From NCBI RefSeq assembly GCF_000027125.1, contig NC_017626.1: DNA of 64,000 nt; one strand, given 5' to 3'. The number at the start of each line of letters is the position of its first letter. Within the stretch, counting starts at the first letter, position 1. Position numbers: made by a program. Below are positions 30,001 through 33,000 of this stretch, one piece after another. The stretch is from Escherichia coli 042. GTDB lineage: Bacteria > Pseudomonadota > Gammaproteobacteria > Enterobacterales > Enterobacteriaceae.

Positions 30001-33000
30001 AAACCACGCGTAACCCCCACGGTAAGTGATTAATTTCGATTATTTTTCCCGGATGGAAAATTCTTAGAAACCGATCACATACAGCTGCATTTATTAAGGT
30101 TATCATCCGTTTCGCTGAAAAACATAACCCATAAAATGCTAGCTGTACCAGGAACCACCTCCTTAGCCTGTGTAATCTCCCTTACACGGGCTTATTTTTT
30201 ACGCATAAGCCCTATCCCTGATAACCGTCTTCCATTGACCACATCGATAGAATCTCCCTTCATAGCACGATGCCTTTCACACAACGGCATCGTGCTCGCC
30301 CAGGTTCCGGCTACGCACAGCCAGAACGCGCATGTTTGACGCTTACCAAAAAATGAACCTAAAGCATTGGAATATTTTTGACATCATTTTCTGATGGCGG
30401 CATAAAATAAAAATGCTGCTTTAGTTTCATCTATCTGTTTGTCATTATTACTCACATTCAATAATGGTGTTGAAGAACAACTATCAGAGATAAAAATGAA
30501 TGTGTACATCGTAGTCTTGAATCTATTCTCGCTCTCCACATTTGAATGTCAGACGAGCGACGCCATGTAATCCTGCACCTTCTGTCTTCAGGTCAACTAT
30601 CTGCATTTTTTTGCCCTGAGTAACACAGAAATGAGCTGCATCATTTTTTACTATATTTTCTGCACCAGAAATTCTGCCCCTGGCTAAAGAAGCTTCGGCT
30701 TCGGTGTAGTATTGGTTATCGAGTTTACGCTGAATATTACTTTTATATGCAAGACCAAATTTACCGATACTTGTCTCATCATTATGTACAGCACACCCAG
30801 ACATAAGAAAAACACTAATTAATGATATAGCAGCTATCTTTTTCATCTCACCTTCCCCCATTAAATACCAACGACACGCTCTGGTGTTTAAATATAATAA
30901 TGGCATGATTATTATAATTGAATAGGATTATAATAAATGTTCTGTACAACATTTCCTACATAAGTAGGAATTACATACACGGATGCCTTCCGGGTAACCC
31001 CATGGGGGGGTTAATATATTTTTAATAGTATATTGAAGATGCCACTGTTTAGTTGAATATTAGGTATATGCTCTTTTTTGAAATTTATCGGTGGCTGCCG
31101 TTAACATTCACTGTCCCCATTGCAAGCTCCTGGTGGTAACCACTGAATCCTCTATACTTGAACTGACTTTTTATCCTCCGACTTTCATCCTGTTCTGACT
31201 CCACCTTTTCTTTTCTGCTCTACACTATCTACAGACCAATCATAAAGGCACATACGATCATGGCAGAATTTCCCGCCAGCTTACTGATTCTTAATGGCAA
31301 AAGTACTGACAATCTACCCTTGCGCGAAGCAATTATGCTGTTGCGTGAGGAAGGAATGACGATCCATGTGCGGGTCACCTGGGAGAAAGGCGATGCCGCA
31401 CGATATGTAGAGGAGGCCCGGAAGTTGGGCGTCGCAACGGTGATTGCCGGTGGTGGCGATGGCACCATTAATGAAGTTTCTACGGCGTTGATTCAATGTG
31501 AGGGGGATGACATACCCGCGCTGGGAATTTTGCCATTAGGAACCGCCAATGATTTTGCCACCAGTGTAGGGATTCCTGAGGCACTGGATAAGGCGCTGAA
31601 ACTGGCAATTGCCGGTAACGCCATTGCGATAGATATGGCGCAGGTCAACAAACAAACCTGTTTTATTAATATGGCGACAGGCGGGTTTGGGACGCGTATT
31701 ACCACAGAAACGCCGGAAAAATTAAAAGCCGCGCTGGGTGGCGTCTCTTACATCATTCATGGCTTAATGCGCATGGACACTCTGCAACCGGACCGTTGTG
31801 AAATCCGCGGTGAAAACTTTCACTGGCAAGGTGACGCCCTGGTCATAGGTATTGGTAACGGGCGTCAGGCCGGTGGCGGTCAGCAATTGTGCCCGAACGC
31901 GTTAATTAACGATGGCCTGCTGCAACTGCGCATTTTTACCGGCGATGAAATTCTTCCAGCTCTCGTATCAACCTTAAAATCTGACGAAGATAACCCGAAT
32001 ATTATCGAAGGCGCTTCGTCGTGGTTTGATATACAAGCCCCACACGAAATCACTTTTAATCTTGATGGCGAACCGTTGAGTGGGCAAAACTTCCATATTG
32101 AAATACTTCCGGCGGCGTTACGTTGTCGATTACCACCAGATTGTCCATTATTGCGTTAATCAAACTATTCTCTCTTGAACCAGGGAGAATCCGTAATGCC
32201 GGATGCGGTGTAAAAACCTTATCCGGCATACAGAACAATACTACACCGTAATTAATTTCACCCGTGTCTTCTGCAATGCCAGTTTATCCACCTCTGACAC
32301 AGCATCGTCGGTAATAATAATGTCGATTTTTTCGATTGGCAGTACCTGATTAAAACCGCGACGATTAAATTTCGATGAATCGAGAACGGCAATCACTTTA
32401 TTTGCGGCTGTGACCATCGCCCCGCTAATCGAATAACCTTCATTAAAGGTCGTAATACCATTAACCGCATCAATACCATCAGCACCGACAAACATTAAAT
32501 CGGCATTAATATCCTGCAATGAACGCTCGGCAATGGAACCATGCATCGAGCGTGTTTTATGGCGGACGGTCCCACCACAGACGACCAGAGTAATGTCTTT
32601 ATTTTCGGAAAGGGCAAATGCTGCCGGGAGACTGTTGGTAATCACCGTGATATTTTTGGCGGTCATTAATCCTTCGGCGATAAGCATTGTGGTACTTCCG
32701 CTGTCGAGAATAACGGTCATCCCTTCGTGGATCATTTTGACTGCCGCCTGCGCTATTCTGTTTTTTGGCGCACTGGCGAGCTGAAATCGCTCTTTAAACC
32801 CAACTTCCTGGGTCTCGGTTTCACTATTACCGGACATTATTTTCGCCGCACCGCCATGAAAGCGCGTAACCACGCCTTTTTGTTCGAGAAAGCGCAAATC
32901 GGCACGGATTGTCGCTTCCGAGGCAGCAAATACTCCCGCCAGATCCTGAACAAGCACGGTTCCCTGTTCATTCACTAATTGGATGATCTTATTCCTTCGC

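What the first reader, a model, noticed from the sequence alone, without database searches (positions are those of the whole stretch)
30100..30522. No P2-remnant genes (ogrK-yegZ) next to cyaR: apparently unoccupied phage integration site
CyaR is followed by only ~320 bp of non-coding DNA before yegR. In K-12 I recall a P2-like prophage remnant (ogrK, yegZ) at this position, so this strain seems to have the empty site. The region contains an 11-bp perfect inverted repeat (agcacgatgcc ... ggcatcgtgct, about 30262-30294), which could be part of an attachment site or a terminator.
Basis: partly seen in the sequence, partly recalled or inferred. Interest (0 to 1): 0.35.

Follow-up and report, generated by a model that had tools for sequence, protein, structure and literature searches.

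The report
Empty P2 phage site beside CyaR
This E. coli strain has the long-known phage P2 integration site at the end of the cyaR small-RNA gene in its unoccupied state, as about 78% of E. coli genomes do, whereas K-12 carries a dead P2 fragment there; this is ordinary, although the "host" DNA beside the site turns out to be the scar of an older insertion.

Summary
CyaR lies at 30112-30197 and is followed by 325 bp with no intact gene before the yegR stop codon (30523-30525). The 27-nt P2 attachment core (30174-30200) is the 3' half of the CyaR terminator and matches P2 attP exactly over 30 nt. The window contains no ogrK, yegZ/D, int or second core. K-12 carries about 640 bp of ogrK plus a D fragment at this point.

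Of 5,423 complete E. coli genomes, 4,205 have the contiguous empty junction, 356 (the four listed are laboratory strains) have the K-12 remnant junction, and about 860 are split. All four split examples examined held a P2-like prophage. This is the published P2 locI/cyaR site, so the finding is already known.

Three details go beyond the finding:
- In 51 other enterobacterial species yegS starts 68-139 nt after CyaR. E. coli has about 980 extra bp there (about 30201-31177), including yegR.
- The left end of that insert is a decayed P2-family P arm that keeps an Int arm-type site (30233-30251).
- The extra 170 bp next to yegR (30355-30524) is a truncated lipoprotein pseudogene, present in 947 genomes.

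The inverted repeat (30264-30296) is a real, strong, single-copy hairpin. It lies outside the att core and has no U-tract.

The parts
28668..30029 (+). yegQ/trhP (tRNA U34 hydroxylase), the conserved left neighbour of cyaR
   Evidence: ORF list. RefSeq annotation of the 99.9%-identical strain LC-1302-2020 and of K-12. tblastn finds YegQ next to cyaR in 93 of the 96 species loci.
30112..30197 (+). CyaR (RyeE) small RNA gene
   Evidence: Rfam RF00112, 100.7 bits, full-length match to model positions 1-85. Terminator stem-loop 30165-30192 followed by a T-run.
30174..30200 (+). P2 attB core (locI type), identical to the P2 attP core; it forms the 3' half of the CyaR terminator and its T-run
   Evidence: 30-nt exact match (30174-30203) to P2 24353-24382, which the P2 record annotates as 'attP' and 'Int attP core'. 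Single copy in the window. It is the insertion point of the K-12 remnant and of full prophages.
30201..30262 (+). Decayed P2-family P arm (fossil). It retains one Int arm-type site block, CATTGACCACATCGATA, at 30233-30249
   Evidence: 15-nt exact, collinear match to the annotated P2 'Int P arm' site, reached by 0 of 1000 and 0 of 2000 shuffles. A profile of 8 P2-like arms with the core removed has its best hit in the whole window at 30233-30251 on the + strand, E=0.03. Longer E. coli haplotypes align across the IHF and Int-site region at E=3.5e-4 to 1.4e-3, with 48 of 67 columns identical to P2. The block is invariant in 14 haplotypes.
30264..30296 (.). Strong hairpin (11-bp perfect stem, 11-nt loop) of unknown role; probably lies in the yegR 3' untranslated region
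   Evidence: Single copy, present in 5,414 of 5,426 E. coli genomes. One compensatory pair change, one wobble and one mismatch among 14 haplotypes. No U-tract on either strand, and not reported by the terminator scan.
30297..30354 (.). Spacer of unassigned origin, shared at 77.6% identity with a divergent Escherichia lineage (L026)
   Evidence: blastn. The weak second hairpin at 30304-30327 is not significant, z about -1.
30355..30524 (-). 170-bp indel segment. Its yegR-proximal part (30417-30524) is the truncated 5' end of a second lipoprotein gene that follows yegR in other enterobacteria, i.e. a pseudogene remnant
   Evidence: Absent from O157, K-12 and most other genomes. Present as a single chromosomal copy in 947 of 5,426 genomes, including B2 strains JJ1886 and NC101. 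Window 30418-30856 is 72.6% identical over 441 nt (E=1e-65) to a yegR-plus-companion locus. tblastn of companion residues 4-37 against this segment gives E=1e-5.
30523..30846 (-). yegR, a small predicted lipoprotein (107 aa here), essentially restricted to E. coli and Shigella at this locus
   Evidence: ORF and annotation. PF27694 family; named hits are Escherichia or Shigella apart from one Enterobacter relative. No homolog in any of the 96 cyaR loci from other species. The phage-database hits come only from prophage records that include host flank.
30847..31177 (.). yegR upstream spacer and the right end of the E. coli-specific island; no phage relic detected
   Evidence: No P' arm, int or ogr similarity. 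The only phage-database match is host flank included in record ON470606. The resemblance of 31102-31173 to the cyaR 3' end is not significant: 115 of 2000 shuffles reach the score.
31178..32159 (+). yegS leader and yegS (lipid kinase). In outgroups this lies directly after the CyaR terminator
   Evidence: Alignment with Escherichia sp. E1V33, E. whittamii and strain E69. yegS starts 68-139 nt after the CyaR terminator in 51 species.

Best explanation
Window 30174-30200 is an intact, unoccupied attB for P2-type phages, the site called locI in E. coli C. The 27-nt core that P2 integrase recombines is also the descending half of the CyaR terminator and its T-run. Because phage and host cores are identical, integration rebuilds the terminator and leaves cyaR intact. 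That identity is shown here; how P2 Int, IHF and Cox act at the site is established knowledge and was not tested.

This strain has nothing inserted there. K-12 carries a dead remnant (ogrK plus the 3' part of gene D), bounded by a full core on the cyaR side and a truncated core on the yegR side. About 16% of genomes are split at the junction, and the four examples examined carry P2-like prophages.

The DNA on the yegR side is not original host sequence. About 980 bp (about 30201-31177) is absent from other Escherichia species and from other genera, where yegS follows CyaR directly. Its first 60 bp or so are a decayed P2-family P arm, so an earlier P2-like element integrated at the same core and was then largely deleted (inferred). 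The insert also holds a hairpin of unknown role, a truncated companion-lipoprotein pseudogene (the 170-bp segment kept in this strain and in B2 strains, lost in about 82% of genomes) and yegR.
For: Core identity with the annotated P2 attP. One core copy and no P2 genes in the window. K-12 annotation and alignment. Junction counts: 4,205 empty, 356 K-12 type, the remainder split. Prophage genes on both sides of occupied sites. Published table listing 'cyaR RNA' as a P2 insertion site, with ogr-D' in K-12, prophages in W and B, and none in Crooks (PMC3032704). Ancestral cyaR-yegS adjacency in 51 species and no YegR in any of the 96 loci. P-arm homology. L026 and E. albertii carry other truncated P arms at the same place. 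The 170-bp segment is a companion-gene remnant and its frequency was measured.
Against: In the window's own haplotype the P-arm signal rests on a single 15-19-nt block (E=0.03 over 128 kb). The broader arm homology is seen only in other E. coli haplotypes. No int, ogr, P' arm or clear second core survives at the right end of the island. It therefore remains unproven that the whole 980 bp arrived with a P2-like element. yegR relatives elsewhere are never in a phage context. The competence of this attB for integration is inferred from sequence identity and from lysogens in other strains; it was not tested.
Confidence: 0.9

Rival explanations
1. The empty site is derived: this lineage once had the K-12-type ogrK-yegZ remnant, or a prophage, and lost it by excision or deletion.
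For: Prophages do occupy the site in about 16% of genomes, and precise Int/Cox excision would restore exactly this sequence. A past lysogen that excised cleanly cannot be excluded.
Against: The K-12-type junction occurs in only 356 genomes, and the four listed are laboratory strains. Its right-hand core is truncated, so Int could not excise it precisely. The empty junction is found in 78% of genomes from all kinds of sources.
Confidence: 0.05
2. The resemblance of the flank to the P2 P arm is not a fossil of integration. It is either chance, or the phage arm was copied from the E. coli flank.
For: In the window the match is only one short block. No other phage relic is present in the island.
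Against: 0 of 2000 shuffles reach the score. The match is on the right strand, collinear, and within 30 nt of the core. Longer haplotypes extend the homology over the IHF and Int-site region. The same arm accompanies prophages at cyaR in Citrobacter and Enterobacter, while most species lack it and have yegS directly after CyaR, so the arm belongs to the phage family rather than to E. coli.
Confidence: 0.1
3. The 30264-30296 inverted repeat is a working part of the attachment site, or an intrinsic terminator (for CyaR read-through or for yegR).
For: It is a very stable, highly conserved, single-copy hairpin with one compensatory pair change. It lies downstream of yegR on the - strand, so a role as a 3'-end structure for yegR mRNA is plausible.
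Against: It is 64 nt outside the 27-nt core, and P2-family arms have no counterpart to it. It is absent from the related L026 flank. There is no U-tract after the stem on either strand, and the terminator scan does not report it. CyaR has its own canonical terminator.
Confidence: 0.2
4. The roughly 980-bp yegR island is ancestral to Escherichia and was deleted in E. whittamii, E1V33, E69 and other genera.
For: E69 has the E. coli/P2-type core (ACACGGG) but no island, which could suggest a loss.
Against: 51 species from many genera share the short cyaR-yegS spacing with a homologous yegS leader, and none of the 96 loci has yegR. E69's junction (TGTACCACGAC) resembles the outgroup junction, not the right end of the E. 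coli island. The closest yegR relatives sit in a different locus with an intact companion gene.
Confidence: 0.05

Closest known systems
Phage P2 attB locI of E. coli C (Barreiro and Haggard-Ljungquist 1992, recalled from memory because the paper is not in the held library); listed as insertion site 'cyaR RNA' in the E. coli W genome paper (PMC3032704, Table 2)
   Same: Same 27-nt core, identical to attP, at the 3' end of cyaR between yegQ and yegR, and unoccupied as in strain Crooks.
   Different: Nothing essential. This strain additionally keeps a 170-bp pseudogene fragment next to yegR that most strains have lost.
K-12 cryptic P2 remnant ogrK-yegZ (ogr-D')
   Same: Same chromosomal position and the same left-hand core.
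   Different: The window lacks the remnant entirely. In K-12 the remnant sits in tandem with the older fossil arm, so K-12 has two generations of P2 debris at one core (native flank scored).
Integration of temperate phages and islands into the 3' ends of tRNA, tmRNA and sRNA genes (for example the sdsR/ryeB locus as an att site, PMC3333887)
   Same: The phage core duplicates the 3' end and terminator of a small RNA gene, so the gene survives integration. The locus accumulates foreign DNA repeatedly.
   Different: The target here is CyaR and the phages belong to the P2 family (Peduovirus).
P2 attP P arm (IHF site, two Int arm-type repeats, ogr/F-operon terminator)
   Same: The flank keeps the distal Int arm-type repeat and, in some haplotypes, part of the IHF-site region, in the same order and orientation relative to the core.
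   Different: The proximal repeat is degenerate, 7-19 nt are missing, and there is no ogr terminator or ogr gene. It is a relic, not a working arm.

Membership tests
P2-type attB (locI) | Core sequence identical or nearly identical to the 27-nt attP core of P2 | tested here: met
   27 of 27 identity, 30 of 30 including three flanking bases, to the annotated P2 attP. Unique in the window.
P2-type attB (locI) | Chromosomal position: 3' end of cyaR, between yegQ and yegR | tested here: met
   Rfam CyaR hit overlapping the core. Flanking genes identified. Same position as the K-12 remnant.
P2-type attB (locI) | Actually used by P2-like phages for integration | tested here: met
   Shown in other genomes, not in this strain: prophage ogr-D-tail genes right of cyaR, int left of the yegR flank, and the published Table 2 of PMC3032704.
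P2-type attB (locI) | Unoccupied: no phage genes and no second core between the flanks | tested here: met
   tblastn with OgrK, D and Int, and blastn with the K-12 remnant, find nothing beyond the core. Contiguous junction as in 4,205 genomes.
P2-type attB (locI) | Supports Int/IHF-dependent recombination in this strain | not testable with these tools
   Requires a lysogenisation or in vitro recombination assay.
CyaR/RyeE sRNA (RF00112) | Covariance-model score above the Rfam gathering threshold, full length | tested here: met
   100.7 bits against 47, model positions 1-85 of 85.
Rho-independent terminator (for the 30264-30296 hairpin) | GC-rich stem-loop | tested here: met
   11-bp perfect stem, -21 to -25 kcal/mol.
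Rho-independent terminator (for the 30264-30296 hairpin) | U-rich tract immediately 3' of the stem | tested here: not met
   + strand tail CGCCCAGG, - strand tail ATGAAGGG. Not reported by the terminator scan, which does find the CyaR terminator.
P2-family attP P arm (for 30201-30262) | Two direct Int arm-type repeats at a fixed distance from the core | tested here: inconclusive
   The distal repeat is intact (15-17 nt exact). The proximal repeat is degenerate (GTCTTC against GTCCACA), and the spacing is 19 nt shorter than in P2.
P2-family attP P arm (for 30201-30262) | IHF site between the core and the arm repeats | tested here: not met
   Deleted in the window's haplotype. Partly retained in the TBE6, DA33137 and L129 haplotypes.
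P2-family attP P arm (for 30201-30262) | Followed by the ogr/F-operon terminator and ogr | tested here: not met
   No terminator homolog and no Ogr similarity.

The most novel reading that the evidence does not exclude
The preferred P2 site of E. coli may not be pristine host DNA. It may be the left junction of an ancient P2-family integration: the E. coli-specific 3' half of the CyaR terminator (ACACGGG, identical to P2 and different from E. albertii, E. whittamii and other genera) and the adjacent arm with a conserved Int arm-type site would both be phage-derived. On this reading the whole 980-bp yegR island is what remains of that event, or was inserted into its remnant. The invariant arm-type Int site 30 nt from the core might then contribute to P2's known preference for locI. 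I found no paper in the searchable library that describes this.
Probability: 0.4. Interest if true: 0.35.

Novelty: already known. Interest (0 to 1): 0.15.

Why it matters
The finding itself matters little. It only says that this strain resembles E. coli C and Crooks, not K-12, at a site characterised decades ago, and it could therefore be lysogenised by P2 at locI. The added detail is of modest interest to phage and genome-evolution specialists. It shows one sRNA terminator acting as a repeatedly used landing pad across Enterobacteriaceae: 13 of 96 species representatives have a P2-type arm next to cyaR. It shows layers of debris accumulating there (fossil arm, then yegR island, then the K-12 remnant). 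It also explains where the orphan gene yegR and the strain-variable 170 bp beside it come from.

Tried and rejected
1. A decayed second core at the right end of the island (31102-31173 against the cyaR 3' end). The score was reached by 115 of 2000 shuffles and by 66 of 2532 natural 99-nt stretches, so it is not significant.
2. Relics of P' arm, int or ogr in the island: none.
3. yegR as a phage gene. The PHROG hit and the tblastn hits trace to prophage records that include host flank. Divergent relatives lie in non-phage contexts.
4. The 170-bp segment as a mobile element or sRNA. It is single-copy with no credible Rfam match. Its internal 14-nt inverted repeat was not pursued once the segment proved to be a pseudogene remnant.
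5. A TTGACA-17-CATAAA promoter-like site I saw by eye at 30380-30408 is not reported by the promoter scan, so I dropped it.
6. The second hairpin at 30304-30327 is not significant.
7. The hairpin as a dispersed REP-like repeat: rejected, one copy per genome.
8. The search for complete genomes with the L026-type flank found nothing.
9. YegR variants P0016, P0043 and P0046 proved to be error-ridden E. coli assemblies.
10. The 10-nt direct repeat AATCTCCCTT (30174 and 30251) is not conserved in other haplotypes, so I treated it as coincidental.
11. The primary papers (Barreiro and Haggard-Ljungquist 1992; De Lay and Gottesman 2009) are not in the held library.

Full report
**Observation**

Rfam places CyaR at 30112-30197 on the + strand (100.7 bits). 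yegQ/trhP ends at 30029. yegR runs on the - strand from 30846 to its stop codon at 30523-30525, and yegS starts at 31260.

The perfect inverted repeat is real but slightly misplaced in the finding. Its arms are 30264-30274 and 30286-30296. It does not arise in any of 100 shuffles of the window. It folds at -21 to -25 kcal/mol, with z = -5.9 and -4.4 on the two strands.

**Is this the P2 site, and is it empty?**

Window 30174-30203 is 100% identical to P2 24353-24382, which the P2 record annotates as attP and the Int core site. The 27-nt core is the descending arm of the CyaR terminator plus its T-run.

In K-12 MG1655 the annotation between yegQ and yegR lists ogrK and a 'phage late control D family' pseudogene. 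In the alignment, K-12 has about 640 extra bp that begin right after the core and end at a truncated core copy (ACACGGGCTTATTTTTTT). After that the sequence rejoins the window's flank.

The window has no OgrK, D or Int coding potential anywhere, and only one core. Other genomes carry complete P2-like prophages here. O157:H7 FRIK944 has ogrK, full-length D and tail genes right of cyaR. Strains N58 and DA33137 and the prophage record ON470606 have an integrase directly left of the core and yegR flank.

**How common is the empty state?**

I used a 130-nt query centred on the core, for which an occupied site can cover only about 62%.

| State of the junction | Genomes (of 5,423 with a match) |
|---|---|
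| Contiguous empty junction | 4,205 |
| K-12-specific D'/truncated-core junction | 356 (the four listed are laboratory strains: ER1709, JME64, BM28, MC4100) |
| Split junction | about 860 |

The empty site is thus the norm and K-12 is the exception. The E. coli W genome paper already tabulates 'cyaR RNA' as a P2 insertion site, with ogr-D' in K-12, prophages in W and B, and nothing in Crooks (PMC3032704). From memory, the site is locI of Barreiro and Haggard-Ljungquist (1992). That paper and De Lay and Gottesman (2009) are not in the held library.

**The flank is not original host DNA**

I scanned one genome per species for the CyaR seed sequence and obtained 96 loci.

- In 51 of them, spanning Klebsiella, Enterobacter, Kosakonia, Atlantibacter, Citrobacter, Raoultella and others, yegS starts 68-139 nt after the CyaR terminator. 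None of the 96 loci encodes a YegR homolog.
- In Escherichia sp. E1V33, E. whittamii and strain E69, the terminator is followed within about 10 nt by sequence homologous to window 31178 onward, the yegS leader.
- In the window the same distance is 1,059 nt. So about 980 bp (about 30201-31177) is an insertion located exactly at the att core.

**The left end of that insertion is a decayed P2-family P arm**

- Window 30233-30247 (CATTGACCACATCGA) is an exact, collinear match to the annotated P2 'Int P arm' binding site. None of 1000 or 2000 dinucleotide shuffles reaches the score.
- I built a profile from eight P2-like arms next to cyaR (P2 itself plus prophages in Citrobacter and Enterobacter), with the core removed. 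Its best hit in the whole window, on either strand, is at 30233-30251 (E=0.03).
- E. coli haplotypes that keep 12 more nucleotides after the core (TBE6, DA33137, metagenomic L129) align to the profile across the IHF-site and Int-site region. E-values are 3.5e-4 to 1.4e-3, and 48 of 67 columns are identical to P2.
- The block is invariant in 14 E. coli haplotypes, while its surroundings vary.
- Other truncated arms sit at the same place in E. albertii and in L026. L026's flank continues into sequence 77.6% identical to window 30296-30362.
- No relic of int, ogr or the P' arm is detectable elsewhere in the island. The apparent second core at its right end is not significant.

So an ancient P2-type integration at this core is well supported. 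Whether that element delivered yegR is open.

**The 170-bp segment**

Most E. coli lack window 30355-30524. It is present, always as a single chromosomal copy, in 947 genomes, including the B2 strains JJ1886 and NC101. In nearly all of them it is only about 93% identical to the window.

YegR relatives of 76-83% identity in other enterobacteria lie in a different locus, near ivy and acs. They are followed by a second lipoprotein gene of 108-110 aa. Window 30418-30856 aligns to such a locus at 72.6% over 441 nt (E=1e-65). The stretch past the yegR stop translates to residues 4-37 of the companion protein (E=1e-5).

The segment is therefore a truncated pseudogene that arrived together with yegR. 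It is not phage DNA, not a mobile element and not an sRNA.

**The hairpin**

It is single-copy and present in 5,414 of 5,426 genomes. Among 14 haplotypes it shows one compensatory pair change (C-G to T-A), one wobble change and one mismatch. It lies outside the core, P2-like arms have no counterpart to it, and L026 lacks it. It has no U-tract on either strand.

The most likely reading is a structure in the yegR 3' untranslated region, or a neutral relic. Neither is demonstrated.

**Verdict**

The finding is correct, ordinary and already known. The new details are the fossil arm, the E. coli-specific yegR island at the att core, and the pseudogene origin of the 170 bp. These are a minor refinement rather than a discovery.

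Noticed in passing
window 15958-16106, 16293-16435, 16621-16763 (+): Three tandem SIB RNA (RF00113, Sib antitoxin) copies, each 140-150 bits. As far as I recall, K-12 has two at this locus (sibA, sibB), so this strain probably has an extra Ibs/Sib toxin-antitoxin repeat.
   Followed up: no
window 46541-46637 (-): TPP riboswitch (RF00059, 71.8 bits).
   Followed up: no
window 30995-31013 (+): Terminator-like stem-loop TAACCCCATGGGGGGGTTA followed by a T-run, in the yegR-yegS spacer. No gene obviously ends there.
   Followed up: no
window 30523-30531: In this strain the usual yegR stop codon (TGA) is lost through TCA>TCG at 30529-30531. The gene ends two codons later at a TAG that straddles the junction of the 170-bp segment, giving 107 aa instead of 105.
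   Followed up: partly
window 30184-30190; loci L008-L103: The 3' half of the CyaR terminator is ACACGGG in E. coli, identical to the P2 core. It is ACGCAGG or ACGCGGG in E. albertii, E. whittamii, E1V33 and almost all other genera. This is consistent with the E. coli version being phage-derived, or with P2 having adapted to E. coli.
   Followed up: partly
window 30188-30195 and 30205-30212: An 8-bp inverted repeat, GGGCTTAT / ATAAGCCC, joins the core to the first bases of the flank. On the - strand it forms a hairpin next to the reversed CyaR terminator.
   Followed up: no
L113-L117, L130 (other enterobacteria): yegR relatives recur next to ivy (inhibitor of vertebrate lysozyme), paired with a second small lipoprotein gene. 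This hints at a periplasmic or envelope defence role for the YegR family. A K-12 yegR knockout had no phenotype in glucose chemostats (PMC3708739).
   Followed up: partly
L104 (Enterobacter sp. BIDMC 29): A YegR relative of 51% identity sits with an MFS transporter between IS elements, close to an omptin gene and a Tn3-family transposase. This is a mobile context.
   Followed up: no
L119, L120 (E. coli assemblies): A parD/parE-like toxin-antitoxin pair lies between yegP and yegQ in some E. coli. It is absent from the window.
   Followed up: no
loci L008-L103: The cyaR-yegS interval is an insertion hot spot in many genera. There are unrelated inserts of 620-660 bp (Enterobacter, Lelliottia, Leclercia, Mangrovibacter), about 940-990 bp, and 2-4 kb. 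13 of 96 species representatives carry a P2-type arm right after cyaR.
   Followed up: partly
L054 (contig labelled MAG: Collinsella sp.): A contig assigned to Collinsella carries cyaR with a P2-like arm essentially identical to that of E. coli P2 prophages. This is very probably Enterobacteriaceae contamination of the MAG.
   Followed up: no
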